Positions 10,937 to 55,285 of a stretch of DNA of 64,000 bases are shown here, one piece after another. Position 1 is the first letter of the stretch. Each line of letters starts with the position of its first letter. The DNA lies in the sequence record NZ_CP123987.1, one strand, 5' to 3'. Source of the DNA: a plasmid. The notes under the pieces were generated by a model. The model was not told the DNA's origin, searched no databases, and worked only from the letters and a program-made list of their open reading frames with translations. The translations under genes and the position numbers were made by a program.

Positions 10937-11792
10937 TACTTTAGCCTCCTACTATAGCTAAATAAACTATAAGTTAATATTTAACCATTAATAAACGATA
11001 CAAATATAATTATGTTATCGTGAATTAATTCACAAATATTACACTTATAAAATAACATCATATACACAATAAATCAATACTATTTTTAAATTTATTTTAT
11101 TTTTTCTTTTATTTTGTTAAATAAGTCACTTACTTAAACGGATTAAAAATATAAATAAAGTATATAGAAAATATTAAAAATATTTTTTGTAATCGTTTTC
11201 TATAATGATTTAATCATATCTTATATACTGTTTTTTTACAATATATTTCAACAAATTTATCGATAAAAATACTTTAATATCAATTAAACAGCATGTATCA
11301 ATTCTAATTATGATTAAAATAATAATTCTTTACCCTTTCATTAGCCCTACCTAAGTTTATAAACCTAAAACTTATTGTTACTTAGTTTTAATTAATCCAC
11401 AATAATATAAGAATTTTAGATACATTAGTACTCACTACATATAATTTGCTTCTCTTCTTTTTTATTCTTTATCTTCTTGGTTAAACTATGAAGAAAAATA
11501 TAATTTTTTGTTAAATTTATTTGAAGAAATGTTTGAAAAAATATTTATTTTACTATATTCTAAAAGGGACGAAATGTATGAAAACGAATAAAATCATCAT
11601 AAAAATATCAAGTTACATTGTTCACATAATTAAAAATCAGAAGTTAGACTTATCTTTTACTATTTATACTTATTGTACTTTTCTAGATAACTATCAATAA
11701 TTATATTTTCTTATTTCTGATTAACTCTAAATTTATGATTTTCCATTCAATCCTGAGCATTTCTTAATTACTTTTAGAAAGGACAGATTAAT

Positions 11793-14700
11793 ATGCTTAA
11801 CAAGAATAATCATTATGGCAAACAACTTGCTAATACTCCACATACACCTCGCTACGCTCTTAGAAGGCTTAAAGTTGGACTTGTTTCAGTCGCTCTTGGA
11901 ACTGTCTTTTTCTTTACACCACAAGCTCTAGCTGATACAACTAGTGGAGTTGATACGAGTACAGACCCTTCTACATTAACCACTACTAATGCAGCTGAAA
12001 ATCACACAACTAATGCTTTGAGTAGTGCTAATGCTGCCAACAAAGTCAGTTTAACTAATACTACTTCAAAGAATACAGTCCAGGCATCTTCTACTTCCAA
12101 TAACACTGAAACTGTTACAAATATATCCACGCCGACTACTACAAGTGGAACAGAAAACAATACTGCTAATACTCAAAGTAGCAACACCAATGCTATCGAA
12201 AATAACACAGCTACCGATACTACAATAAAAGCTAATAATAGTAAGGTTCAATCGAAGCTACAAGCTACTCCAAGTAATACTAGTGCTTCAATCAGTGATA
12301 ACAACACTAATCAAGTAACACTTTCTCATGGTCAAGCACAAGGACAACGTGTCGTTAATATTACTACTGACGCTACTAGTGGGGACACTTTTACAATTGA
12401 AGTACCTTACATTTTTACAGCCACAAACAATGCTAATGGAGATCTCTTCTCTGCAGAGACGAAACTTACTCCCGTAAATAATCCTGCTTTTATTTCGAGC
12501 AAACCGCTCTTTAATACTACTTTTATTTATCATATTAAAAATGTTAATGGAAATATTTCATTTAACGTCAATTTATTACCACAGTTACGTGACTGGGCTC
12601 TATTAAAACCCGGTCAAGTATTCAAATTAACAGTAGCTCGCAATAATCAACAGGTAGGCGATATCACTTACACAATTGGCCCACAACCTTTAATAAATGA
12701 TGTAACGATTACCTTTGATCATAATCAAAGCAACAACTTACTTCCTAACCAGACATATATGGTAGGAATTGGACTACCTAATGATGGAGTAAATGACGGC
12801 GATAACTTCACTGGAACAATTAAGGTTGATGTTCCAGATGGATTTGTCTTTGATTCTAGCCGTTCTAATGGCGTGGTTACCGGTTCTAATATTGGTGACG
12901 ATTTAGGTATGTTTAATACTTTAGGTTCGATGGAAGGGATATCCATCAGTCAAGAAGCTGCTGGAAAACCTATTATCATTGAATATAACCGTACAAAATC
13001 TGAATTAGGTAAAGGATTCATCCTTCTTTACGGTCACTACACTAAGAATATTGATGCTAGTCAAAACACTTTCACAGCTACAGTAACAGCAACAACAACT
13101 AATGCAGATGGCGATAAAGCAAACTATGATGGATCAATTCAAACAATTACCAAGAGTCGTAATATTAGTATGCCAGTAGAAAATCCGGCTCGAAATTCTC
13201 TCGACTCTTCATTTGCTATTGGGGAAAACAATATTTATCGTGACCAGGTCAATCCAGATGGTAGTCATAGATCTGATGATCCAAAGTTAACATATGGGGC
13301 ACAACGTCGGATTGAAATTATCAATAATGGAAACCAAACTCAACAAGATGTTACTACCCATATCAATCTAGAACCTGGAACAGTACTTGTTAAGTTAAGT
13401 AATGGAAAATATGGATTGCTACTAAATTCTTCAGATATCAACAAACCAAAGTCAATAGTAGCTACTCTCGAGGACGGAAGAAAAGTAAATATTCCTATTA
13501 ATATCTCTACTTTCAGCGATGGTCGTAGTATTGGCTATGCTGCACTAATTACTTCTGACTTAGTTAATTCAGGAGTAAATGCAGACGGAACAAATATTAC
13601 TTCTCTTGATGTTACCTATACTTCACTGGAACCAGGAACAAAATTAGAAATTTCTTTTGGAAATAACGGTTTGATTTCTGACAAGAAACCTGGAGAAGTT
13701 GCTACTTACTCCTATACAGTAACCTCTGCTAATGGAGCTAGTCATAACGGAGTTCAATCTATTCCGATTGCCGATCCAAAGGGGTTTCAATATCAATTTA
13801 CTGGTTGGATTAACTTTGCTGGTGGCGATTACCAACCCAACAGTGAAAATGGTGGAAATATTGCCAAAATTTCCTATACTCTTCAACACGTTAATTATTC
13901 AGATGAAGCAAGTTCTTACCTAATTGAAATTCCTAGAGGATTCACTGTTAACCCAAGTGATCTTCGTCTCTTTCAAAATAATAAAGAAGTAAAAGATGGA
14001 AAGATTGAATATTTAGGGACTGTTGGAGAACACGGGGAACAAACTTTTGTTATTTCTCTCCCATTCATGCCCTTTTACGGAATTCCAGTTTATGTGAAGG
14101 ATGCTAATAACCAAGACTTAACCATAACGGCAACACCTAACCAAGCACCTGCGAACTACTCATATGCTCCAACTTTGGTTGATACTAATCCTTTAATTGC
14201 TGAAATTGTAACAGATAAGAATAAATTTACTCCAGTTTCATACCAAGCGTTCCATACTATTACTCGTGGTAATCAGACCTTTACTATTCTTAATATGCCT
14301 GGTTTCGGCCCAAACTGGGTTAACTATTCTTTTAGTTATGCTTCAACTTATAGTAGTTTTGATTCAATTCGTTCTAATGGCGATTATATTCAAGCTGGTG
14401 ACAGCTTAACTAATCCACCTAAATTAAACTATATTCAAAACGGCCAAGTGGATAACACCAACGGAAGTCTTAAACTTAATACTTATTTATCTGATCTTGG
14501 AAAATCTGATTGCAGTTATAACCTAGTAAATTTACCAGACGTTGCACTTGGGGATAATACAACTATTTCACTTACTGGACAAGGAACAATCAGTGAAAAT
14601 AGGAACGGAGAAAATGTACAGCTTCTTTACTCTACGAAACATATTAACAAAACTGAAGCTCTCACTGAAGATGACTTCAAAGACTTTATAACTGCTGATA

Positions 14701-16306
14701 AAGTTACAGATTGGTCTGCTATTAAAACTGTACTCCTAAAAGCTGGTACTCTTACTAGTCCAGGAAATATCACTGCTGAATTGCCGTTCAAAGTTACTGA
14801 GATGAAAGATGGAGAGATTAATACTAACGTAATCTTCAACACTAACTTCACTGGTTTTCATAATGCAATTACTCATAGTAATCCACAACTAGCACTTAAT
14901 GTGCAACGTTATATCAACGTTACTACCAAATGGGTAGACGATGATACTGATCAAGAGCTAGCTCCAAGTACTACCCAAATGGTACGCTCTGGCGATACTT
15001 ACCAAACTATCGCTAAGCCAGCTGATCTTAATCCAAATTATCGTCTTGAACGTGTAGAAGGAAATCAATATGGAGTTACTGGTGCTAATGATCTTATTGT
15101 TACTTACCATTACAAGGCTCTAACAGATGACTCGTTAAAAGAAAGCAAATCCATAACTAGAACTATTAACTATGTGGTTAATGATGGTCAAGTCCAAGCT
15201 CCAGATACGGTAGTCCAAGCTGTTACTCTCATTCGCCATGGAAGTAAGAACTTGGTAACTGGTAATATAACTTGGGGACAATGGAGTGATGATCAATGGA
15301 ATGAAGTTGTTTCTAAAACAGTTAAGGATATCACCCAGATAAAGAATCTGTAGCTCAACAAAAAGTAACAACAAACACTGATAATACAACAATAACTGTA
15401 CACTATATTAAGAATCCGATTGTATCTTCTACTGAAAGCAAGACTGTTAAACGTACTATTAACTATCTCGTTGATGGCAATGAAGTTTCTGCTCCAGATT
15501 CCGTAAACCAAGAGTTCACCTTCTCTCGTGATGTATTCACTGATACCATCACTGGTGATGTTACCTACGGTAACTGGAACGTCGATAATACTTCTTTTGA
15601 AGCTGTCGATTCTCCTTCATTGAAGGGTTATACTCCGGATCTTAAATCTGTTACGGCTTTAACTGTTACTCCAGATACTAAGGACACAGTCATTACTGTT
15701 ACTTATACTAAGAATCCAATTGTAACTTCTACTGAAAATAAGACGGTTAAACGTACTATTAACTATCTCGTTGATGGCAATGAAGTTTCTGCTCCAGATT
15801 CCGTAAACCAAGAGTTCATCTTCTCTCGTGATGTATTCACTGATACTGTCACTGGTGATGTTACCTACGGTAACTGGAACGTCGATAACACTTCTTTTGA
15901 AGCTGTCGATTCTCCTTCATTGAAGGGTTATACTCCGGATCTTAAATCTGTTGCGGCTTTAACCGTTACTCCAGATACTAAGGACACAGTCATTACTGTT
16001 ACTTATACTAAGAATCCAGTTGAAGTTCAACCAACTCCTAAACCAACAGAATCGGTTGACTCAAATAAGACTGATCCTGCTGATTCAACAAATACAATGA
16101 CAAAACATGTTAACTCAACTACAGTAACTGCTAAATCACAAATAATAAATCAAGTTGTTCCTTCCCAACCAGTTACAAAATCTAAGAAACTTCCACAAAC
16201 TGGTGAAGAACATAATAGTTTAGCTACTATCGGTCTCTTAATACTTTCATTAGCAACTGGCCTTGGTTTAAAGAAACGAAAAAAAATTAATCTTTTAATT
16301 GATTAG
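11793..16306 (+). pseudogene. LPXTG-anchored mucus-binding-type surface protein, split by a 1-nt frameshift near 15322-15328
   Basis: YSIRK-like signal peptide (RYALRRLKVGLVSVALG), a Ser/Thr-rich region, MucBP-like repeats, and a C-terminal LPQTG anchor with hydrophobic segment and KKRKK tail at the end of the second ORF (15620..16306). ORF1 stops at 15351-15353. Adding one G in AAGGAT restores a continuous frame through the 300-bp repeats. Confidence 0.8.
15395..16020 (+). repeat. Coding tandem repeat, two near-identical 300-bp (100-aa) units of a MucBP-like module
   Basis: 15421-15720 and 15721-16020 are about 97% identical (KTVKRTINYLVDGNEVSAPDSVNQEF...). An upstream diverged copy at about 15130-15330. 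Confidence 0.85.
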
Positions 16307-16311
16307 ATACA

Positions 16312-16341
16312 AAAAAGACGCCTAGAAAGCGTCTTTTTTTG
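16312..16341 (+). terminator. Rho-independent terminator of the surface-protein gene
   Basis: AGACGCCTAGAAAGCGTCT hairpin followed by a T7 run. Confidence 0.8.
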
Positions 16342-18395: not shown

Positions 18396-18734
18396 CCCCT
18401 ATATTATGGTCATCAATATGGTTTTTACATTACGCCTTGAAAAGGTTTTTGTCAATACATTTTAATTATTTAATTACAAACACTTATTTATAAATATTAA
18501 AACTTATTTATATGTAAATTAACCATAACTAACACTTAATTAAATGCAAAATTTTAAAAAAATAAACTTACCTAGCATTTATCGAATTATATGCAGATCT
18601 CTTTACTCAATATTTAAGTTAATTATATAAAGATACCCTCAAAAGATTCTCTATAACGCTTTTGAGGGTATCTTTGTATGTGATATAATTTCAGTAGTTA
18701 TAGTTGCAACGTAATTTTTAGTGAGGTGTTATAT

Positions 18735-19556
18735 ATGGAGTACCCTTATCGTGAAAAATTTCTATCTTGGGCTAAAGATGTTAAACATTATCGTGAAAGT
18801 ACCGTAATGTTGTACGATTATACCGTCAATAGTTTCTATAACTATTTTTATAGTCAATCAGAACATGGTAATGATATTCGTCTTGTCCGACCTCAAGATA
18901 TCACTAACTATCTTGTAAATATTCAAGAACAACATCATATTGTTGCTAATACTGCTAATAAATACTATTTTCACTTGAAAAAGTATTTTACTTTTCTCTA
19001 TAGTAATCAGTTGATTGATGAATATCCTTTAATCGATTTAAAAACTTACAAAGTCAATAAATACACTAATATTACACTTGGTTGGCAGCAATATCTACCT
19101 GAAATTTTCAAAATTGCGGAACTTTCTGATGATGCAAAATTAGAACTTTTTCTAATCTCTCAAAATATCGAACCAAAGGGATTACTTAATATTACTTTTG
19201 GACAGCTTCGAAACTTTAATACAGAAAATATTGGAATTTTGCTAGATAATATTGAAGTAAAACCTGATAATTATTTCGTATTCTCACTAAAAAACGATCC
19301 TGAAAAACCATTGAATTCGTTAAATTCATTATTAATGAGAGTTAGACCTGATGAAGAAATTTTGAATATGACACTAGCCCCTTCAAAATTAAGACAAAGT
19401 TATATTTACAATTATCTCCTTACTAATAAAGATAAATCCGAAATTGAACTTCTAGATCATCTTCATCTATCTATTAAGTCATTAGTATATTATCGTCAAA
19501 ACTTGCTCAATATTGACTTTAATAATTTTGTTTATGAAACTCCAAAAGAAAAGTAG
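18735..19556 (+). CDS. XerD-like tyrosine-recombinase family protein, possibly catalytically degenerate
   Basis: N-terminal core-binding (SAM-like) domain pattern. No clear R..H..R..Y catalytic tetrad visible. RBS GTGAGGTG before ATG 18735. Confidence 0.45.
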   Translation: MEYPYREKFLSWAKDVKHYRESTVMLYDYTVNSFYNYFYSQSEHGNDIRLVRPQDITNYLVNIQEQHHIVANTANKYYFHLKKYFTFLYSNQLIDEYPLIDLKTYKVNKYTNITLGWQQYLPEIFKIAELSDDAKLELFLISQNIEPKGLLNITFGQLRNFNTENIGILLDNIEVKPDNYFVFSLKNDPEKPLNSLNSLLMRVRPDEEILNMTLAPSKLRQSYIYNYLLTNKDKSEIELLDHLHLSIKSLVYYRQNLLNIDFNNFVYETPKEK

Positions 19557-22976: not shown

Positions 22977-24264
22977 TTAAATGCTCATAACCATAAGGAA
23001 AGTAAACCAACCATCTTTAATTTGATAATTAATAAAAATATCATTATAAGATTGACTTAATTCTTCTATATTAGCTAATCCTAATCCGTCATGATTCTTC
23101 TTAGTTGTAAAACCTGATTTTTTTATATCTTGAATTGTTAGATCGGTATCTCGATAACGATTTCTAATCTCAATTTCAAGTTCACCATTTTCTTGATAAA
23201 TCATAGTATCTATCTTAGCTTCATCACCAAACTCAAGACTTTCTTCAATTGCATTATCGTACACAATTCCTAATATTCTAACAATGTCAAACGAGTTATA
23301 CTTATTCGACAAGTTTTCTATCACAATTCGACATTCAAAAGAATATTGAATATTGTTTTGAAAGATTCTATTCAACTTACTGATAAATAGACTCTTTAAT
23401 AATTCATCTTTAACATTGTCAACATCATTAAACTGCCATAATACTTTATCTTCTAAAGTCTTACTTGAATATTCAGCTAGTTTATCTATTAACTCTTTAT
23501 CATGACTTTTTTTACACTGAGTTTCAAGCTTAATAGCATATTTTGATAATCGTGCTTAAATTTACGTAAACCTCGCTGGCTACTTTCTAACTGTTGTGTA
23601 TAAATTTTTAGATCATTAATTTGTTGTAAACTTAATTTATCCTGCCGTATTTTCTTATTAATGGAATATACAAATAATGAAAAGAACAATTGGCTAACAA
23701 CAACTACCGTAGCTATAATATACGATACTGCATCTATATTAAATACATATGTTGTTAGATAGTAAATAACCATTGAACTAATCCATATGTATAAAATTAA
23801 ATAAAAATACAATAATCCATACTCATCATCTAGTTTCTCTATTATAGTCGTCTTTGTTAAAATTATATATTCAAAAATGTTTAATGACACATCTAATATT
23901 ATCACACTGACCATTGTGTAATAATTTGTAAATAATGTAAAAAATAATGCTGAAGCACCGAATGTTATATAGGAAAATAAATCTAGCATTAACAACCTTC
24001 CACATAATCTGTAATCCAAAGTTAGTTGTCTGTATACAATATAAAAAATAAAAATTTCAATAAATGGTGCAAAAAAACCAATAATATCTCCAACACCATT
24101 AATTAAAAGAATTACAGGAAAAGTAAGAAGTATAAATAATAAATTATACTTCTTACTTTTCCTAGTAGGGGTCAAAAGATAAAAAAACTATATCTACAAA
24201 AAGTATTTATAAATAAAATTAGTGTAGCTACTATATAACCAGATGTTGAATTTAAATTAACCAT
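22977..24264 (-). pseudogene. AgrC-like (HPK10) histidine kinase, frame-disrupted
   Basis: ATG at 24262-24264 overlaps the IP stop (TAATG). The frame is lost at an A7/T7 tract at 24181-24187. The TM sensor plus H-box (RKFKHDYQNML) ORF runs 23489..24175. The HATPase part (GLGLANIEE) 22977..23375 is in the same frame but separated by TAA, TAG, TAG. The intervening 45 nt read sensibly (SHDKELIDKLAEYSSK) only in another frame. Confidence 0.7.
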
Positions 24265-40364: not shown

Positions 40365-40683
40365 AATGAATTGTGAGGTAATAGATTATGAAAAAACTTT
40401 ATTCTGCTCTTATGACTGCATTTAACGAAGATGGTTCTGTTAACTTAGACGGTGTTCGTGAAATGGTTCGTTACAATATTGATGTAAATCATATCGATGG
40501 ACTTTATGTAGGTGGTAGTACTGGTGAAACTTTCATGCTTAGTACAGAAGAAAAAAAGAGTATCTTCAAGGTTGCTTATGAAGAAGCTGCTGGCAAAACA
40601 CATCTTATTGTAAACACACTATAGTGTGACATTACAGATAAAAAGGCCCTCAAAATCACATTTTCCTAGTGATTTTGAGGGCC

Positions 40684-42210
40684 TTACTTTGTACAAATTT
40701 CTTTAACTTTAGAATTCCATGGCAAATAAGCTCCAACCTTGACATTTTCTCGTTTTTCTAATAGTGAGAAAATGTAGTTGAAATACTTGAATATATCTAA
40801 GCCATTCAACTTGGCTGTTTGAACTAAACTATAAAATATTGCACTAGCTTTGGCACCATCAACGCTTCTCGCAAACAATGAGTTCTTACGAACTAAGGTA
40901 GATAGCCTAATCACTTGTTCTATCGGATTGTTTGATAGAGGGAGTTCGCCAATTTTATATATATTTTCTAATCTAGGCTGAAATTTTTTGGCATATTCAA
41001 CAGCTTTCTTTAATTTACTGCTAGGATTAGGGATAGTATCCAGAAAATCGTAGAATTCATCAACATATTTTTTCAAATGAAGCTTCCGCTTCAGTACTTT
41101 TTCTTCTGCATTTTGATACTCAAGCTTCTTTTCTTCTTTAAAAATACGATTTAATAATTCTACCGCTCTTACTGCATATGATCCTCTTCCTTGTTTTAAA
41201 GATTTGACTATTTCCACAAAATGTCTGCGTATATGCACCAAACAGCTACCATATGTAATTTGTGGATACATTTCACTGCTATAGGCATTATAACCATCAC
41301 ACATAATTGCTCCAGTGTAAGCTCCAACCAGATTAGAAATATTTTCTTGCTTTCGGCTACTAGAGTAATTAAACACCACTATTTGATGATTTGAAAATTC
41401 TTCTGTCGTTCTCATTACCCAAAAATACGATTTACTTCGATTCTTTTCTTCCAACACCTGAAAAGGAGTTTCGTCCATATGAATAACCGGATTTTTCAAT
41501 AAAATCTTAGTAAGTTCATCGTGAACCGTTTCTAACTGTTCACTCAATTTAATGATGGCACGTGCCATATGCTTTGTATCTATTGGTAAGCCAATATGTT
41601 TAAAATATATTGCTTGTCTATTCAATGGTACAGCCATTAAATATTTAGAAGTAACTACTTGAGCCAATACACTACTGGAAAAATAACTATGTGGAAAAAT
41701 AGGACTAGTAGGTACTTTACCGGCAACTATTTTATCGCCACCTTTTGGGTGGCAATTTTCACATTTATAGGTTTGCTGATAATGATTACGACAAAAAAGC
41801 TCAGGTTGTTTCAAGCCTACCTCTCGATAAACACATTTTTTGCCAATTAGAGTGAGTTTTTCATGACAATCAGCACAATTTTTTTGTTCAAGATCATGAA
41901 CGACATCTACTTGTACTAAAGTATCAAGAAACTCAGCTCGTTGACCACGTGGTTTAACTTTTCGGTGGCAAACTACTCTAAGCTCTACTTCAACTTCTTC
42001 ATTTTCTTTAGATGAAATATCAGAATCTATATCTAATTCTTCTAATTCAGCCTCTGAAAAAAATGAAAGTTGATTTTTATCTAATTTTTCCGTTTTTTTT
42101 CCAAAAATACGGGCATTGAGAAGCTTAATAGTTTCAGACAATTCTTCAATCTTTTTATGAAGTTGTTGATTTTCCTTTTCAAGCTCCTCTATTCTTTTGT
42201 CTTTATCCAT
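40684..42210 (-). CDS. tnpC: IS66 family transposase TnpC
   Basis: 508 aa with a leucine-zipper-like N-terminus, CxxC...CxxC zinc finger and DDE region. Confidence 0.85.
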   Translation of the reverse strand: MDKDKRIEELEKENQQLHKKIEELSETIKLLNARIFGKKTEKLDKNQLSFFSEAELEELDIDSDISSKENEEVEVELRVVCHRKVKPRGQRAEFLDTLVQVDVVHDLEQKNCADCHEKLTLIGKKCVYREVGLKQPELFCRNHYQQTYKCENCHPKGGDKIVAGKVPTSPIFPHSYFSSSVLAQVVTSKYLMAVPLNRQAIYFKHIGLPIDTKHMARAIIKLSEQLETVHDELTKILLKNPVIHMDETPFQVLEEKNRSKSYFWVMRTTEEFSNHQIVVFNYSSSRKQENISNLVGAYTGAIMCDGYNAYSSEMYPQITYGSCLVHIRRHFVEIVKSLKQGRGSYAVRAVELLNRIFKEEKKLEYQNAEEKVLKRKLHLKKYVDEFYDFLDTIPNPSSKLKKAVEYAKKFQPRLENIYKIGELPLSNNPIEQVIRLSTLVRKNSLFARSVDGAKASAIFYSLVQTAKLNGLDIFKYFNYIFSLLEKRENVKVGAYLPWNSKVKEICTK

Positions 42211-42284
42211 AGTTCGCCACCTCCTCTTTTAAGATTATGCTTAAAAGCATACCAGTAGGCAGCGTTTTTAGTAAAGAAAAATTT

Positions 42285-42641
42285 TTAATAAAATGCACCT
42301 TTTGGTGCTAAATGTACTTTGGGTTGTGGTAAAGGATTAAGTCCACTTAAAAGTAAGTCAATTTGTTGGTTATCTAATTCTTTAACTTCTTCACTAGTTT
42401 TCGGCCAAGTTAAATTACCATTTTCGAAACGTTTATAGAGTAGTATAAAACCTTCACCATCCCAATAAAGAGCTTTAAATCTGTCGTTTCTTCGACCACA
42501 GAACAAGAAGATTGAATCATTATAAAGATTCATACCAAAATTATCGGCAATTAAAATTGCCAGTGTATCGATTCCTTTACGTAAATCAGTGTTGCCACAA
42601 ACAATATATACATGTTTAGGAGAGTGATAATTAACTAACAT
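42285..42641 (-). CDS. tnpB: IS66 Orf2 (TnpB) accessory protein
   Basis: 118 aa, conserved IS66 Orf2 pattern (DLRKGIDTLA...LYWDGEGF). Confidence 0.8.
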   Translation of the reverse strand: MLVNYHSPKHVYIVCGNTDLRKGIDTLAILIADNFGMNLYNDSIFLFCGRRNDRFKALYWDGEGFILLYKRFENGNLTWPKTSEEVKELDNQQIDLLLSGLNPLPQPKVHLAPKGAFY

Positions 42642-42882
42642 ATTTCTTTATCAACTCCCAGACGTCATTCATTACTTCAGTATCAACTCCGTGACACAAC
42701 AAAATTTTCACCTTATCAAATTTAATTTCAGCATCTAAATTCAATTTGGTTGTTTTAATTTTAGTTGCTGTTTTCCGTTTTTTAGTTGGTTTTACTTCAA
42801 CAATTTCAGTTTCTTCCATTGTATAAAAAATCCTCCTATACTTTTTATGATAATAGTATAGGGGGATTTCAAATTTTTTCAT
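42631..42882 (-). CDS. IS66 Orf1 (TnpA-like) small protein
   Basis: 83 aa, overlaps Orf2 as is typical for IS66. Confidence 0.5.
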   Translation of the reverse strand: MKKFEIPLYYYHKKYRRIFYTMEETEIVEVKPTKKRKTATKIKTTKLNLDAEIKFDKVKILLCHGVDTEVMNDVWELIKKYVS

Positions 42883-43586
42883 ATTCAGCTCATTATAAAG
42901 TACTTACATCTTATTGCTCAAGTAGGGTCTTTGAATTTAAATGAAGCAAAAGAATTAGCTAAATATGTGACTGATTTAGGTTACCCTATGATTTCTGCTG
43001 TTACACCTTTCTATTATAATTTCTCATTTGAACAAATTAAGAATTATTATAATTCAATTCTTGAAGGTGTAGATAATAAACTTATTATTTATTCTATTCC
43101 AGCTTTAACAGGTGTAGCATTATCTCTAGATCAATTTGCTGAATTGTTTGAAAATCCAAAAATTGTAGGTATTAAATATACTAATGCCGATTTCTATCTC
43201 CTAGAACGTGTTCGTAATCGTTTCCCAGATAAGTTAATTCTTTCAGGTTTTGACGAAATGCTATTACCTGCTCTTGCATTGGACGTTGATGGTGCAATTG
43301 GTTCAACATTTAACTTAAACGCTCCTCGTGTTAAAGAAGAAATTGCAGCTTTCGAGGCTGGAGATATAGAAAAAGCTCGTGAACTTCAAACATTAAGTAA
43401 TGACTATATTACTGATCTTTTAAATAATGATTTATATCCAACTATTAAGTTAGTATTTGAAAAAATTGGTGTTCATGCTGGCTACTGCAAAGAACCTATG
43501 AGCAAGCCAACTCCTGAAATGGAAGCTGGAGCTCAAAAGATTTATGAAAAATATTTCAAAGAATAGTAGAAATTGGGGTGAAGATT

Positions 43587-47966: not shown

Positions 47967-48126
47967 TAAATGATAACAATTACTATTTAAAAAGTCAATA
48001 AAAATTATCATATTCAGAGTAAAGTTAAATAATTTGATTACTTTTTTTCAATTTTCTACAATTATCTTATTAACTACTCTAAGATTAGAAGGGAGAACGG
48101 CATTTTTTTTATTGCCTATTAATTCA

Positions 48127-50046
48127 TTGAAATATATTGTTACTGGAATTATTGCCAATGTTGATGCAGGAAAAACTACTCTTTCTGAAGCATTACTATA
48201 TCAAACGGGAAATCTACTCAATTTAGGTCGCGTTGATAACGGCAATACTTTCTTAGATACTGACCAACTAGAAAAAAAGCGTGGTATTACTATTTTTTCA
48301 CACCAAGCAAATTTAGAATATAATGATCTTTCACTGACAATTTTAGATACTCCAGGACACGTTGATTTTGTTACTCAAACCGAACAAGTTTTAAGTGTTC
48401 TTGACTATGCTATATTAGTTATTTCTGCTACTGATGGAATTACTAGTCACACTAGATCTCTTTGGAATTTGCTAAATCATTACCATATTCCTGTATTTAT
48501 TTTTGTTAATAAAATTGATATCAGCACTAATAAGGCCTCACAGATTTTATCTCAATTAAAAAGTGAATTAGATGAATCAATTATTGATTTTTCTTCTGAT
48601 AATATGATTGAAGATATTGCAACGTGCAATGAATCATTATTTGAAGAGTATTTGCAAATTAATACCATATCTGATGAAAAAATTCTATCACTAATCTCTG
48701 ATAGAGTTATTTTCCCATGCTATTTTGGCTCTGCTTTAAAGTTAGATGGTATTGATAAATTTTTACAAGGATTCAATCAATGGACAAAAAAGTTACACTA
48801 TCCGAATAATTTCCAAGCCAAAGTATTTAAAATTTCTCACAACGATAAAGGTGAACGTCTAACCTGGCTTCGTATTCTAGGCGGCTCTCTAAAAACTAGA
48901 GATGAATTATTACCTGAACAAAAAATTAGTCAAATTAGAGTATATAATGGTGAAAAGTTTTCAACTTACCCAACTGTTACTGCTGGTCAAGTTTGTACAA
49001 TTCCTGGGCTAGTAAATACCTATCCTGGTTTAAGCATTGGTAAAAAACAAGTAGATACAATTCCAATCGTTACACCTGTTTTAAGTTATGCTCTTGACCT
49101 CAATGGCAATGATATTCAAGCTTGTTTAAAAGCTCTTCATGAATTAGAAGATGAAGATCCTAAGTTACATGTTACTTGGTCTGAACATCTCAAAGAAATT
49201 AGTGTACAAATTATGGGAGAAATTCAGTTAGAAATCCTAGAACAAATACTCCTTGATCGATATAATTTAAACGTCACTTTTACTAAAGGAAATATTTTAT
49301 ATAAAGAAACTATCACTAATTCTATTGAGGGAGTTGGTCACTTCGAACCACTTCGTCATTATTCAGAAGTACATTTATTATTAGAACCTGGAGAAAGAGG
49401 CAGTGGTCTCCAGTTCGAAAATCAATGTAGTCTAGAAGTCTTAAATAAAAATTGGCAACATCAAATTATATACAATCTCAAGTCTAAAGAGCATCTAGGT
49501 GTATTAACTGGTTCCCCTCTTACTGATGTAAAAATTACCCTTTTAGGCGGGAAAGCTAGCAATGTACATACAGTTGGTGGAGATTTTCGTCAAGCATGTA
49601 GTCGTGCAGTTCGACAAGGTTTAATGATGCTCAGAGAAAATAATAATTGCCAACTCTTAGAACCTTGGTATCGTTTCAGACTAAAAGTTGATCGTACTCA
49701 AATTGGTCGTGCAATCAATGATATTCAACGAATGCATGGTACCTTGGATGAACAACAAGTTGAGGGGATACTAACTGGAATTGCTCCTGTTTCAGAAATG
49801 TACAATTATGCCACCAATGTACGCGCATATACTCATGGGAATGGCACACTAGAATTGGAAATTGCTGGTTATTATCCTTGTCATAATTCGACAGATATAG
49901 TATCTCAACAAAATTATGATCCTGTATCAGATTTAGAAAATACTCCACAATCTGTTTTCTGTGCTCATGGAGCTGGATATACAGTTGACTGGAAAGATGT
50001 ACCTACAACTATGCATTGCGAGTATTTTTGGAATGGGATGAATTAG
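48127..50046 (+). CDS. TetM/TetO-family ribosomal-protection-type GTPase (EF-G paralog)
   Basis: G1 motif ANVDAGKTT and the VDNGNTFLDTDQLEKKRGITI segment parallel TetM [21 protein letters not shown]. Also DTPGH and NKID motifs. About 640 aa from TTG 48127. The ORF track extends to 48034. Confidence 0.7.
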   Translation: MKYIVTGIIANVDAGKTTLSEALLYQTGNLLNLGRVDNGNTFLDTDQLEKKRGITIFSHQANLEYNDLSLTILDTPGHVDFVTQTEQVLSVLDYAILVISATDGITSHTRSLWNLLNHYHIPVFIFVNKIDISTNKASQILSQLKSELDESIIDFSSDNMIEDIATCNESLFEEYLQINTISDEKILSLISDRVIFPCYFGSALKLDGIDKFLQGFNQWTKKLHYPNNFQAKVFKISHNDKGERLTWLRILGGSLKTRDELLPEQKISQIRVYNGEKFSTYPTVTAGQVCTIPGLVNTYPGLSIGKKQVDTIPIVTPVLSYALDLNGNDIQACLKALHELEDEDPKLHVTWSEHLKEISVQIMGEIQLEILEQILLDRYNLNVTFTKGNILYKETITNSIEGVGHFEPLRHYSEVHLLLEPGERGSGLQFENQCSLEVLNKNWQHQIIYNLKSKEHLGVLTGSPLTDVKITLLGGKASNVHTVGGDFRQACSRAVRQGLMMLRENNNCQLLEPWYRFRLKVDRTQIGRAINDIQRMHGTLDEQQVEGILTGIAPVSEMYNYATNVRAYTHGNGTLELEIAGYYPCHNSTDIVSQQNYDPVSDLENTPQSVFCAHGAGYTVDWKDVPTTMHCEYFWNGMN

Positions 50047-52055: not shown

Positions 52056-53810
52056 CTACTTTCCACCAAATATTTTCCCAAAGAATCCTTTTTTCTTTTT
52101 ATTTCTCTCATCCATTGCGTCAACCACTTGTTTAACTAGATCTTTTTGTAAATCCATTTGAATTTGTGCTTGCATCTTAACTTGCCTATATGTTTCCTCT
52201 TTCTTATCAGTAATTCCGTGAGTATCCTCATACTTTTTGCGAAGAACAGGCTCTCCCATCCATTTATCGAAGTTATCTACATCGATCATGAATCCAGAAG
52301 TACCATACTTACTACTATCAGAAATTTCATACTTACGCGGAAGATTATTATAGTACAACCCCATCTGTGAACTACCATTATTTTTATTGGTCCCATCTGA
52401 CAATTTATTAAACGCTTGTTTATTAAATTGTGCTTGTAGCTGCTTTCTATAAAAGAAAAATCGTCTGGTTCTTTTACCTGTTCTATTAACATATGCCAAT
52501 CTGACTTACCTCTATATAAAGCATAGTCATAGTTATCTTTTTCAAAAAATTTCTCAATTTCTTGAAAAAGATCATATTTAACAAGTAAGTCCTTTAAGAT
52601 TTTCTTAATTGGATACAAAAAGTCTGCCTGAATTTTTATAGCATCCTCTTCTGAAATATCTTTAAAATATTCTTCCAATAATTGTTGGCATAAGTAATAT
52701 AGATCAGAGTCAGCACGATTTAGTAGTTCATCTACTTTCAAATCTCCTTCTTTACTGTTACCTTTAAATGATGATTCAAAAGATAAGAACCAAATACGTC
52801 TTGCAATTTCATGACGATTAGATACAACGCCCTTAGAATCATCCTCTTTATTCATTGTAAATATTGCAGTAGGCATTGGGCCAGTTATAGAGTTTGAATT
52901 GCGTTTAATCATATCTTCAAAATATTGTCTAGTTGTTAAATCAGGACGAACATCATCAATCATTAATGGACTAACTGGACCTGATGTTTGTAAATATTCA
53001 TTAATAACATCACTTATTGCTTTGTTAACATATTTATTTCTTTCTTCAAACTCACCACTACCCGTAAAATTTAGTGCACCTGTCAACTTAGCGGCTAATC
53101 TTCTACCTAATGTCGATTTTCCCGTCTTACCTTGTCCAATCAAAGCAACTGCTATTGGAACATCTTCTCTATGTTTGCTTTTATCCGCTAAATCATATAA
53201 ATCTCTTACCCTCCAAATAAAAGGTGCTTCATATAAATATAATAAAAATCCTAACGTCTGCCATCCTTCTCCTGATAACTTATACGTATCATACTCGTTG
53301 ACAATATCGCAGAATAATTGTAATTTTTCTTTTAATTCTTCATCACTCAATGAAACTTGTTTTAAAACTTGACCACCTTCGCCTACTTTGGATGCAGTAA
53401 ATAATTTTTCAAATTCATTATTCCAAATTAAAGCTGGTTTAGGGAAATAATCCACATCATTTTTTTTCTTAGATGATTTTTTTGAATTTTCTTGATACTC
53501 AATAATTTGATTTAAGTTTAAGATTTCACTAGTAGCTTTCTTTAAGGTCTTTTCTTTTCTCAGATTACCTAGTTCTGTAAATAACTTAATTGTTTGATTA
53601 ACAGTTACAGCTTCCTTTTTACCTAAATTGCCATTTTGAATTTCCTTAGTTGTATCATTTAAATACACTTTTACTTCATCAGAAGGAAAGTTTACCTTTT
53701 CATCTGTATCGGCAGAATTACTTAACATATTGATAGAATCAGTGTACACATTAAGCTGTGTTTGTTTTGAATTATCTTTTACAAGAAAACCTTTTAAGCG
53801 TTTTGAATCT
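52056..53810 (-). pseudogene. C-terminal part of a VirE/primase-associated P-loop ATPase gene, internally frameshifted
   Basis: Walker A motif VALIGQGKTGKST. The reading frame switches between the 52286..53836 and 52056..52499 ORFs at an A5 tract near 52452-52460; one extra A gives a continuous ...EPDDFFFYRKQLQAQFNK... frame. The N-terminus is continuous with 55328..55650 across the IS3 insertion. Confidence 0.65.
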
Positions 53811-53867
53811 TGAAGTGCCTTACAATTGTTAGACAAAGTCTAGCGATTGTGAGGTGCTTTTTTCGTA

Positions 53868-54385
53868 TGACTAAATATACTCAAAAATTCAAATTAGATC
53901 TTATTCAGGAATACCTAGATACTGGCTGTTCACAACGATGGATAGAAAATAAGTATTCTTTACCAAAGGATACCTTAAAAAAATGGTGGACTGTATACAA
54001 TTTAAAAGGACCCGAAGGGTTGAAATTACGACATTTCAAACGTAAATTTACTGTTGATTTTAAACTTCGTGTGATAAACTACTACCTAAATAATGATGTT
54101 TCAATGTCCAAAGTGGCAGCTTCCCATAATCTTTTGTGTTCACAGATATCTATCTGGTTGAAGTTGTTTATGGAAGGTGGATCTGAGGCCTTGAAACCCA
54201 AGAAGAAAGGTAGGCCAAGTAAGATGTCAAAAATGACAAAGAAGGATGCACGCAAAATCTTAAAAAAGGAAAGTGATGAAATTGCGGCACTAAAGAGTGA
54301 ATTACGTCAAGTCAAAATGGAGCGTGATATCTTAAAAAAATCGTTGACCCTGTTCGGACCCTCAAAGCCAAGGAGAAAACAATAA
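53868..54385 (+). CDS. IS3 OrfA (HTH transposase subunit)
   Basis: MTKYTQKFKLDLIQEY... with HTH and leucine zipper. RBS GAGGTG. Ends after the slippery A7. Confidence 0.8.
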
Positions 54386-55285
54386 TTGTGGATCAGATCA
54401 GGGTGGACCAACAAAACTTGCCCAAAAAGGAACGATATGGGATTGGTGAGCTTCTAAAAACGATTGACTTGAAGCGACCAACCTATTACGATGAACGCAA
54501 ACGTATCATCAATAAAAATGATAAGTATGCTGATGTTAAGGTGGTAATCAAGGAAATAGCGGAAAAAGGTAAATGGAGAGGTTCTTACACATACGGCTAT
54601 CGCCGTATAATGCCACTTCTTGAAAAAGCTGGATATCACATGGCTGAAGCCACTTTACGTCGCCTAATGAACGAATTAGGTGTACAACCAGCTATGTATA
54701 ATCGTCGTAAAAATAATCACTATTCTTCTTATAAAGGTACAGTTGGTAAGGTAGCTGATAACTTGTTAAACCAAACATTTGATGCTACATCTCCTTTTAC
54801 CGTTCTTCATACGGATGTTTCACAGGTACGTCTAGGTGATTCGACCTGGGCTTACATGTCAGTCATTTTAGATCAAGCTACCAAGGAAGTTTTAGCCGCT
54901 TCTGTTAGCCAAAGCCCAAATAAATTGTTGATTATGGATACATTAAACCAGCTTGAGGATAACCTCCCTAATAACTTTAGTCCAATTATCCATTCTGACC
55001 AAGGATGGCACTACCAATTAGAATATTACCGTGAAAAGATTGATTCGTTAAGTTTAATTCAAAGTATGTCCCGCAAGGGAAACTGCCTAGATAATGCCCC
55101 CAATGGAAAGCTTTTTCTATCTTTTTAAAGTTGAATCACAGCCTGAAATAAAGAAATGTAAGAGTATTTCTCAGTTCACACATTTCTTTAACAAGTATGT
55201 CAATTGGTACAATAATGACCGAATTTCCAATAAAACAAAAAACATGAGTCCGGTTGATTACCGAACCCATGTCTTAGCTGCTTAA
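54334..55285 (+). pseudogene. IS3 OrfB (DDE transposase) with extra C in a C-run near 55095-55102
   Basis: DDE region HSDQGWHYQ. The frame breaks at CLDNAPNGKLFLSF*. Reading GCCCC as GCCC restores CLDNAPMESFFYLFKVE...YNNDRISNKTKNMSPVDYR, the canonical IS3 C-terminus. Confidence 0.75.

What the first reader, a model, noticed from the sequence alone, without database searches (positions are those of the whole stretch)
15300..15360. Single-base deletion converts a 1,504-aa LPXTG mucus-binding adhesin into a secreted, unanchored 1,186-aa product
ORF1 stops at 15351-15353. Inserting one G at AAGG^AT (15322-15328) restores VKGYHPDKESVAQQKVTT... and continues through the two 300-bp repeats to LPQTG. 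As sequenced, the strain would secrete the N-terminal binding region without the cell-wall anchor. The downstream 228-aa remnant with the sorting signal has no signal peptide.
Basis: seen in the sequence. Interest (0 to 1): 0.6.

Follow-up and report, generated by a model that had tools for sequence, protein, structure and literature searches.

The report
Frameshift-broken plasmid adhesin gene, Ligilactobacillus salivarius
A real, inherited one-base deletion splits a large cell-wall-anchored mucus-binding-type adhesin gene on a Ligilactobacillus salivarius megaplasmid, an ordinary and already well-known kind of gene decay in this species.

Summary
ORF1 (11793-15353, 1186 aa) stops at TAG 15351-15353. 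The -1 frame then runs from 15326 through a 300-bp x2.1 tandem repeat to LPQTG (16190-16204) and a stop at 16306. Repair gives 1504 aa: YSIRK signal, about 860 aa of Ig-like beta domains, one MucBP, three Muc_B2, and an LPXTG anchor.

An intact 1504-aa allele exists at the same adhE-fbp locus in other strains, 99.78% identical in DNA. It shows that the lost base is an A (GTT AAA GGA to GTT AA GGA), not a G.

The truncated allele is not a sequencing error. It appears in hundreds of independent isolate and human-gut metagenome assemblies. It sits on one haplotype, with 6 linked SNPs separating it from the intact allele.

Nothing suggests recoding: no slippery site, no repeat tract and no downstream RNA structure. 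Some sub-lineages carry further lesions on the same background (Q11* and a second 1-bp deletion). Other alleles of the gene are broken elsewhere, and UCC118 has lost almost all of it.

Best reading: a recent, decaying pseudogene of a sortase-dependent adhesin. An anchorless secreted product is the formal prediction but is unproven. Sortase-substrate pseudogenes in L. salivarius and mucus-binding pseudogenes in lactobacilli are already documented. Interest is low.

The parts
11778..11783 (+). Ribosome-binding site AAAGGA, 9 nt before the ATG of ORF1
   Evidence: Read directly from the sequence.
11793..15353 (+). ORF1: truncated adhesin reading frame, 1186 aa. The last 8 residues (DITQIKNL) are out-of-frame. 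Stop is TAG 15351-15353.
   Evidence: Identical to P0009 / WGT61020.1.
11793..11933 (+). YSIRK-type signal peptide (aa 1-47). Cleavage after ALA47 is inferred.
   Evidence: Pfam PF04650 aa 20-41, E=1.6e-6. TIGR01168. The cleavage site is inferred from the AxA motif.
11934..12314 (+). Low-complexity Ser/Thr/Asn-rich linker (aa 48-174)
   Evidence: Translation. A 51-aa deletion variant, P0018, maps within aa 1-1178; its exact position was not determined.
12315..14912 (+). N-terminal head or stalk of about 866 aa with no Pfam family; all-beta, tandem Ig-like domains
   Evidence: No Pfam hit. AlphaFold2 model, pLDDT 67, all strands. Foldseek top hits are PrgB Ig-like domains, antigen I/II C123, SdrD and ClfA, with low TM-scores. 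Only 26 representative clusters among 1.84 billion proteins.
14916..15116 (+). MucBP domain (aa 1042-1108)
   Evidence: PF06458, E=3.7e-7.
15129..15424 (+). First Muc_B2 domain, interrupted by the frameshift. About aa 1113-1178 are in ORF1 frame and the rest is in the -1 frame; the ends are approximate.
   Evidence: PDB sequence hits 3nz3_A and 3i57_A (L. reuteri Mub) to aa 1111-1177, covering chain positions 14-78 of 112. Pfam Muc_B2 with 3 stretches.
15324..15325 (+). Lesion: AA where intact and outgroup alleles have AAA (1-nt deletion; GTT AAA GGA to GTT AA GGA)
   Evidence: Alignments A1 and A3. Shared by all 12 frameshifted loci in the 14-locus alignment and, with no gap against the window, by the 4 loci examined.
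15326..16306 (+). Remnant in the -1 frame: 326 codons plus stop, holding the end of Muc_B2 no. 1, two full Muc_B2 repeats, a linker and the sorting signal. No signal peptide, and no Shine-Dalgarno sequence before the TTG at 15620.
   Evidence: PGAP annotates it in strain 2102-15 as a separate 'LPXTG cell wall anchor domain-containing protein'.
15404..16022 (+). 300-bp tandem repeat, 2.1 copies, encoding Muc_B2 repeats 2 and 3
   Evidence: Tandem Repeats Finder. Polymorphisms occur at positions exactly 300 bp apart in the two copies.
16190..16204 (+). LPQTG sortase motif, followed by a hydrophobic stretch and a KKRKK tail
   Evidence: PF00746 E=1e-8 and TIGR01167.
16315..16341 (+). Hairpin AAGACGC-CTAGAAA-GCGTCTT plus a T-run: likely intrinsic terminator shared with the convergent fbp gene
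   Evidence: Read from the sequence. The consensus scanner did not list it.

Best explanation
The window is part of a repA-type megaplasmid of Ligilactobacillus salivarius. Between adhE and the class III fructose-1,6-bisphosphatase gene lies a strain-variable gene for a sortase-dependent surface protein. Its parts are a YSIRK signal peptide, a Ser/Thr/Asn-rich linker, about 860 aa of Ig-like beta domains, one MucBP domain, three Muc_B2 repeats and an LPQTG anchor.

In this strain one A of an AAA triplet (Lys1177) has been lost. Translation shifts frame inside the first Muc_B2 domain and stops 8 codons later.

Shown:
- the lesion is real;
- it is derived, because outgroup alleles have AAA;
- it is inherited on a single haplotype and is widespread in human-associated strains;
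- no recoding signal is present;
- the gene keeps acquiring further inactivating lesions, both on the same background and in other alleles.

Inferred:
- The gene is a recent pseudogene produced by relaxed selection, or by selection against the anchored adhesin.
- If ORF1 is still transcribed and translated (its ribosome-binding site and signal peptide are intact), the product would be exported by Sec and cleaved. Lacking LPXTG, it would be released rather than linked to peptidoglycan by sortase A.
- That product would carry a misfolded partial last domain.
- The remnant, which holds 2.3 Muc_B2 repeats and the anchor, is not expected to be translated or exported.
For: Identity and locus: 99.9% identical to pLS2102-15_1 with the same adhE / gene / fbp order.

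Architecture of the repaired protein.

Intact allele: 1504 aa at the same locus, 99.78% nt identity, differing by one gap. Outgroup alleles (Ren 1899 aa; the 85% allele) also have AAA.

Not an error: the 1186-aa product P0008 is on 333 contigs and in 654 index blocks, spanning NCBI isolates and ENA/JGI/Logan metagenomes. The window's exact ORF1 comes from at least 8 separate runs. An independent complete genome has it.

Single origin: all 12 frameshifted loci in the 14-locus alignment share the deletion. They differ from the intact haplotype at 6 linked SNPs.

No recoding: there is no X XXY YYZ heptamer and no homopolymer of 5 or more in the 28-nt overlap. Downstream RNA folds no better than shuffles (z = +1.39).

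Continuing decay: Q11* (C to T at 11823) in GCA_009863695.1, and a second deletion at 15164 in the P0013 lineage (20 contigs), both on the frameshifted background.

Independent lesions elsewhere: frameshifts near aa 62, 127 and 1371. A G5 to G7 run in the 85% allele. Internal deletions in five poultry/fish-derived plasmids. Near-total loss in UCC118 and CECT 5713.

Literature: UCC118 has 10 sortase substrates, of which 6 are pseudogenes (PMC3619620). [quoted passage not shown] Possible selective pressure reducing LPXTG proteins in L. salivarius (PMC5610712).
Against: Most copies of the frameshifted allele still keep the full 1186-codon ORF1 with its ribosome-binding site and signal peptide. 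A released product therefore cannot be excluded.

The truncated form greatly outnumbers the intact form of this allele: hundreds of contigs against about 15. That could reflect selection rather than drift or clonal spread, although the sampling is not independent.

Synonymous and non-synonymous counts within the truncated lineage (3 against 3) are too small to show relaxed constraint.

No expression data were available.
Confidence: 0.8

Rival explanations
1. The anchorless 1186-aa protein is a functional, selected product: a released adhesin or decoy. Alternatively, loss of anchoring is itself adaptive in the human gut. On this view the frameshift is an adaptive truncation rather than neutral decay.
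For: ORF1 keeps its ribosome-binding site, start codon and YSIRK signal. The truncated allele dominates observed copies of this allele family and occurs in many human gut metagenomes and isolates. The experimentally established precedent is truncated, secreted InlA of Listeria (Nightingale 2005, as cited in PMC5131979).
Against: Sub-lineages destroy ORF1 itself: Q11* removes the start and signal peptide, and a second frameshift lies at 15164. Other alleles are broken early, near aa 62 and 127, or deleted. The cut falls inside a domain, leaving an incomplete Muc_B2 fold. Nucleotide diversity across the locus is under 0.25%, so the prevalence can be explained by recent clonal or plasmid spread.
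Confidence: 0.13
2. Sequencing or assembly error: the strain really has AAA and an intact gene.
For: A single-base indel is the commonest assembly error. The window carries at least one other frameshifted gene, abpK.
Against: The run is only 2-3 bases long. The identical lesion is present in a separately sequenced complete plasmid. It is also present in hundreds of independent assemblies and in at least 8 separate runs giving the window's exact protein. It is linked to 6 SNPs that distinguish it from the intact haplotype.
Confidence: 0.02
3. Recoding or phase variation: a programmed -1 ribosomal frameshift, transcriptional slippage or reversible slipped-strand mutation restores some full-length anchored protein.
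For: The LAB-Secretome authors raised strand-slipping as a possibility for mucus-binding 'pseudogenes' (PMC3017865). The overlap contains ATA AAG, where an A-site tRNA-Lys could in principle slip to AAA. A different allele does carry a G7 run.
Against: There is no X XXY YYZ heptamer or homopolymer in the 15326-15353 overlap. There is no downstream structure. The sequence around the site is the same in intact alleles, so it was not shaped as a recoding signal. AA/AAA is far too short for slipped-strand switching. Intact and broken states sit on different haplotypes rather than switching within one.
Confidence: 0.03

Closest known systems
Sortase-dependent protein pseudogenes of L. salivarius UCC118 (van Pijkeren et al. 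2006; Claesson et al. 2006, as summarised in PMC3619620)
   Same: Same species and same class of genes (LPXTG surface proteins, several of them mucus-binding homologues, some on the megaplasmid). Six of ten are pseudogenes or fragments. The same adhE-fbp locus in pMP118 holds only a 73-aa leftover.
   Different: This allele is absent from UCC118. Here the gene is nearly complete and broken by one specific 1-nt deletion. I found no paper describing this allele. My recollection that the UCC118 leftover is the published fragment LSL_1902b could not be checked (one search found nothing; PMC1489637 is not held).
MUB / MucBP-type mucus-binding proteins of lactobacilli (L. reuteri Mub, PDB 3i57; LaCOG01470/03211/99309 in PMC3017865)
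   Same: YSIRK signal, MucBP and Muc_B2 repeats and an LPXTG anchor. Sequence match to the solved Mub repeat. That paper notes that many of these large genes are frameshifted pseudogenes.
   Different: Only one MucBP and three Muc_B2 units. Most of the protein is a rare, unannotated Ig-like N-terminal module (26 representative clusters). Mucus binding was never tested for this protein.
inlA premature-stop alleles of Listeria monocytogenes
   Same: Point or 1-nt lesions remove the LPXTG anchor of a signal-peptide-bearing adhesin. The alleles are inherited, lineage-linked and common in particular niches. The product is truncated and secreted (Nightingale 2005, cited in PMC5131979).
   Different: For InlA, secretion and loss of function were shown experimentally and the ligand is known. 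Here nothing has been measured, and further inactivating lesions suggest plain decay.
Ig-like domain arrays of Gram-positive adhesins (PrgB 8beg; antigen I/II C123 6e3f/3qe5; SdrD; ClfA)
   Same: Best structural matches to the N-terminal 866 aa (Foldseek E = 3e-13 to 1e-6).
   Different: About 10% sequence identity and TM-scores of 0.1-0.3, from a medium-confidence model (pLDDT 67). This is a generic fold resemblance, not family membership.

Membership tests
LPXTG sortase-anchored surface protein | N-terminal Sec signal peptide | tested here: met
   YSIRK signal PF04650 / TIGR01168 at aa 20-48 of ORF1.
LPXTG sortase-anchored surface protein | C-terminal LPXTG motif, hydrophobic segment and basic tail in the same polypeptide as the signal peptide | tested here: not met
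   The sorting signal (16190-16306) is in the -1 frame, downstream of the ORF1 stop.
LPXTG sortase-anchored surface protein | A sortase A in the same genome | not testable with these tools
   The window is megaplasmid only. All 43 L. salivarius genomes studied have srtA according to PMC5610712.
MucBP / Muc_B2 (MUB-type) mucus-binding proteins | MucBP (PF06458) and/or Muc_B2 (PF17966) repeats above the gathering score | tested here: met
   Muc_B2 225 bits (3 stretches) and MucBP 31 bits in the repaired protein. ORF1 alone keeps MucBP and about two thirds of one Muc_B2.
MucBP / Muc_B2 (MUB-type) mucus-binding proteins | Demonstrated binding to mucus or mucin | not testable with these tools
   No experiment was found for this protein or its close alleles.
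Frameshift pseudogene | Intact orthologue at the same locus, with the lesion being the derived state | tested here: met
   L004/L005 are intact at 99.78% identity. The outgroup alleles have AAA.
Frameshift pseudogene | The lesion is genuine and heritable | tested here: met
   Hundreds of independent assemblies and one haplotype.
Frameshift pseudogene | Relaxed constraint or further degradation after the lesion | tested here: inconclusive
   Secondary Q11* and a 15164 deletion occur in sub-lineages. The majority haplotype still has an open ORF1, and SNP counts are too few for dN/dS.
Frameshift pseudogene | Loss of the functional product | not testable with these tools
   Needs transcript and protein data.
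Programmed frameshift / phase-variable contingency gene | Slippery heptamer or a simple-sequence tract at the shift site | tested here: not met
   There is none in 15326-15353. The site is AA against AAA.
Programmed frameshift / phase-variable contingency gene | Stimulatory downstream RNA structure | tested here: not met
   MFE -4.9 kcal/mol, weaker than the shuffles.
Programmed frameshift / phase-variable contingency gene | Both states on the same genetic background | tested here: not met
   The intact and broken states are separated by 6 linked SNPs.

The most novel reading that the evidence does not exclude
The AAA to AA truncation is an adaptive allele. Human-gut L. salivarius lineages that shed the anchor of this megaplasmid adhesin have spread worldwide. 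They either release a soluble Ig-like/MucBP protein or simply lose a surface antigen. The 1186-aa product would then be a stable secreted effector rather than debris.
Probability: 0.1. Interest if true: 0.45.

Novelty: new member of a known kind. Interest (0 to 1): 0.2.

Why it matters
Mainly for annotation and strain characterisation.

RefSeq/PGAP lists the two halves as separate, apparently normal proteins: 'MucBP domain-containing protein' and 'LPXTG cell wall anchor domain-containing protein'. Genome-based probiotic screens that count adhesin or LPXTG genes will therefore over-credit strains carrying this allele.

The locus is also a compact example of how adhesin repertoires differ between L. 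salivarius strains. At one site there are intact alleles of 1402 to 1899 aa, and at least seven independent kinds of lesion.

The AA/AAA site is a simple marker for a widespread human-associated plasmid lineage.

It adds no new mechanism.

Tried and rejected
1. Exact-pattern scans of genome contigs and metagenome contigs for the site, in both states, found nothing, although the pattern works on fetched loci. Those collections simply lack this allele, so they gave no frequency estimate.

2. I suspected that the 85%-identical allele (P0005, ending ...KDIIQTKNL) shared an ancient conserved frameshift, which would have implied long-term maintenance. This was rejected. It carries AAA at the site and a different lesion 50 nt upstream (G5 to G7) that runs into the same out-of-frame stop.

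3. Programmed frameshifting, slippage and phase variation were rejected.

4. The extra length of the remnant in L011 is a scaffold gap of Ns, not biology. The missing repeat in L012/L021/L022 may be repeat collapse in short-read assemblies.

5. Comparing SNP density between ORF1 and the remnant was abandoned. Most remnant 'SNPs' are exchanges between the two 300-bp repeats.

6. Word-based homologue searches with the N-terminal region returned only L. salivarius clusters. The exhaustive HMMER search was needed to find relatives.

7. The original UCC118 sortase-substrate paper (PMC1489637) is not held, and a search for 'LSL_1902b' found nothing. The link of the UCC118 leftover to that published fragment therefore rests on my memory only.

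8. The terminator scanner did not flag the hairpin at 16315-16341. It was read by eye.

Full report
**What is in the sequence.**
The mechanical ORF list gives 11793-15353 (+, 1186 aa, ATG) followed by 15620-16306 (+, 228 aa, TTG). ORF1 ends ...NEVVSKTVKDITQIKNL* at TAG 15351-15353.

The -1 frame is open from 15326 and reads GYHPDKESVAQQKVTT.... It continues through two near-identical 100-aa units to KKLPQTGEEHNSLATIGLLILSLATGLGLKKRKK and a stop at 16306. Tandem Repeats Finder reports a 300-bp repeat, 2.1 copies and 95% matches, at 15404-16022. Adding one base at the site yields an uninterrupted 1504-aa protein.

The repaired protein has these features:
- a YSIRK signal (aa 20-41);
- one MucBP domain (aa 1042-1108);
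- three Muc_B2 domains;
- a Gram-positive LPXTG anchor (aa 1460-1498).

A ribosome-binding site, AAAGGA, lies 9 nt before the ATG. A hairpin plus T-run follows the remnant's stop.

**Where it comes from.**
The region is 99.9% identical to plasmid pLS2102-15_1 of Ligilactobacillus salivarius strain 2102-15 (human isolate, Russia). The window matches that plasmid at 99.95% or better over about 50 kb.

The gene sits between adhE and a class III fructose-1,6-bisphosphatase gene on the repA-type megaplasmid. The window also carries the replication genes. The window's GC content is 31.9%.

**Ancestral state and the exact lesion.**
An intact 1504-aa protein (P0011 = WP_241690223.1; also P0016) belongs to the same 90% cluster. 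It differs from the repaired window protein at only 4 residues.

Its loci (L004, a metagenome contig; L005, isolate GCA_009865705.1) show the same adhE / gene / fbp arrangement. They match the window gene at 99.78% with a single gap.

The alignment shows GTT AAA GGA TAT in the intact alleles against GTT AA- GGA TAT in the window and in strain 2102-15. Two more distant alleles also have AAA: strain Ren (1899 aa, intact) and an allele about 85% identical.

So AAA is ancestral and the window has lost an A (window AA = 15324-15325).

**Real mutation or error?**
The 1186-aa product with the frameshifted tail exists as several near-identical proteins. The commonest, P0008, is recorded on 333 contigs and in 654 index blocks. 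These span NCBI isolate genomes and ENA, JGI and Logan assemblies of human-gut metagenomes. The protein identical to the window's ORF1 (P0009 = WGT61020.1) was assembled from at least eight separate sequencing runs.

I aligned 14 loci. All 12 frameshifted ones share the same deletion. They differ from the two intact ones at six further linked positions: 11798, 13105, 13445, 14249, 14512 and 14576.

The lesion is therefore genuine and inherited, and it arose once on a distinct haplotype. Overall divergence is below 0.25%, so it is recent.

**Could the frame be restored during expression?**
The two frames overlap only between 15326 and 15353. That stretch has no X XXY YYZ heptamer and no homopolymer. 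The 100 nt downstream fold more weakly than shuffled controls (z = +1.39). The flanking sequence is identical in intact alleles.

A 2-3 base run is too short for slipped-strand switching. The two states also lie on different haplotypes. I consider recoding and phase variation very unlikely.

**Pseudogene or purposeful truncation?**
Two further lesions were found on the frameshifted background:
- C to T at 11823 turns codon 11 (CAA) into TAA in isolate GCA_009863695.1. The annotated protein there (P0010) begins at an internal TTG without a signal peptide.
- A second 1-nt deletion at 15164 shortens the ORF to 1139 aa in the P0013 lineage, which is seen on 20 contigs.

Elsewhere in the gene family there are independent lesions:
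- frameshifts near residues 62, 127 and 1371;
- a G5 to G7 expansion plus further breaks in the 85% allele;
- internal deletions in five poultry/fish-derived plasmids;
- near-complete loss in UCC118 and CECT 5713, where a 73-aa ORF remains.

Intact versions of 1402, 1499, 1504 and 1899 aa also circulate.

This pattern fits repeated loss of a dispensable accessory adhesin. It agrees with published statements:
- UCC118 has ten sortase substrates, of which six are pseudogenes (PMC3619620).
- Many large mucus-binding genes of lactobacilli are pseudogenes (PMC3017865).
- L. salivarius may be under pressure to reduce LPXTG proteins (PMC5610712).

**What the broken gene would make.**
This part is inference. 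ORF1 keeps its ribosome-binding site and signal peptide, so if it is expressed the product should be exported and released rather than anchored.

That product would retain the Ser/Thr/Asn-rich linker, the ~860-aa N-terminal module and the MucBP domain. It would also keep about two thirds of the first Muc_B2 domain, since PDB relatives 3nz3 and 3i57 align only to aa 1111-1177. It would end in eight foreign residues.

The N-terminal module has no Pfam family. It has only 26 representative relatives among 1.84 billion proteins, all at the N-terminus of YSIRK...MucBP/Muc_B2...LPQTG proteins. The model is all-beta (pLDDT 67). It resembles Ig-like domain arrays of PrgB, antigen I/II, SdrD and ClfA only loosely.

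Calling this module 'the binding region' is therefore a guess. Most of the Mub-type repeats lie beyond the break.

The 228-aa ORF, like the 304-aa CDS that PGAP calls from an ATA codon in strain 2102-15, has no leader and no Shine-Dalgarno sequence. It is best regarded as untranslated remnant.

The predominance of the truncated allele could reflect selection. It is equally explained by spread of one plasmid lineage and by non-independent sampling. The SNP counts (3 synonymous, 3 non-synonymous within the lineage) cannot decide between these.

**Comparison with known cases, and verdict.**
Mechanistically this is the same kind of event as the premature-stop inlA alleles of Listeria, which give truncated, secreted internalin A (Nightingale 2005, cited in PMC5131979). 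It is also the same kind of event as the documented sortase-substrate pseudogenes of L. salivarius.

As encoded, ORF1 fails the defining test of an LPXTG protein, because the signal peptide and the sorting signal are not in one polypeptide. The repaired gene passes.

I found no paper on this particular allele. It is therefore a new member of a well-known kind: useful for annotation and strain typing, but not surprising.

Noticed in passing
window 22977-24175 (- strand): The AbpK-like histidine kinase of the salivaricin (Abp118-type) bacteriocin regulatory module is frameshifted just after its H-box (…RKFKHDYQNMLLSLK…). It is split into a 228-aa membrane part (23489-24175) and a 132-aa GHKL part (22977-23375). 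AbpK is a single gene of about 430 aa in JCM1046 (PMC4165912). Strain 2102-15 shows the same split, and its response regulator is split as well, whereas the window's is intact (264 aa).
   Followed up: partly
window 40611-42905, and 42931-43566: An IS66-family element (transposase 40684-42210, TnpB 42285-42641) is inserted into the N-acetylneuraminate lyase (nanA, DHDPS family) gene. Only profile positions 81-281 remain in the ORF 42931-43566. The near-identical plasmid pLS2102-15_1 lacks the insertion and has an intact nanA. A sialic-acid (mucin sugar) catabolism gene is therefore broken in the same strain as the mucus-binding-type adhesin.
   Followed up: partly
window 48034-50046 (+): A ribosomal-protection tetracycline-resistance-type gene (EF-G-like domains) lies on the megaplasmid, with an IS3-type transposase pair further downstream at 53810-55128. 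In the near-identical plasmid it is annotated as TetM/TetW/TetO/TetS family. This is relevant to probiotic safety screening.
   Followed up: partly
L016-L019 (for example L018 5870-5890); corresponds to window 15271-15283: In the 85%-identical allele of the same gene, a G-run is G7 (TTGGGGGGGCAATGG). It is G5 in the intact Ren allele and GGGGA in the window. This +2 shift runs into the same out-of-frame stop as the window's lesion, so unrelated lesions give look-alike C-termini (…KDIIQTKNL). A G7 tract could be hypermutable.
   Followed up: partly
L001 9893-10807 (= window 15392-16306): In strain 2102-15 PGAP annotates the remnant as a free-standing 304-aa 'LPXTG cell wall anchor domain-containing protein'. 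By coordinate mapping to the near-identical window sequence, it starts at an ATA codon. ORF1 is annotated as an ordinary 'MucBP domain-containing protein'. Neither is flagged as a pseudogene.
   Followed up: yes
window 15404-16022 and the same region of L006-L015, L021, L022: Most polymorphisms in the remnant occur at positions exactly 300 bp apart (15519/15819, 15547-8/15847-8, 15583/15883, 15589/15889). This indicates exchange between the two Muc_B2 repeats, either by gene conversion or by short-read assembly mixing. Some assemblies show only one repeat. An intact 1402-aa variant (P0015), about 100 aa shorter and probably lacking one repeat, also exists.
   Followed up: partly
window 16280-16286: An A7 run lies in the codons for the basic tail after the membrane segment. 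Variant P0015 ends …KKRKKKLIF instead of …KKRKKINLLID, consistent with a 1-nt length change in this run. It falls after the sorting signal and is probably harmless.
   Followed up: no
window 18726-19556 (+): A site-specific integrase gene (weak Phage_int_SAM_1 match) lies next to fbp. It borders the variable adhesin locus in every megaplasmid examined where the adjacent region was shown.
   Followed up: no
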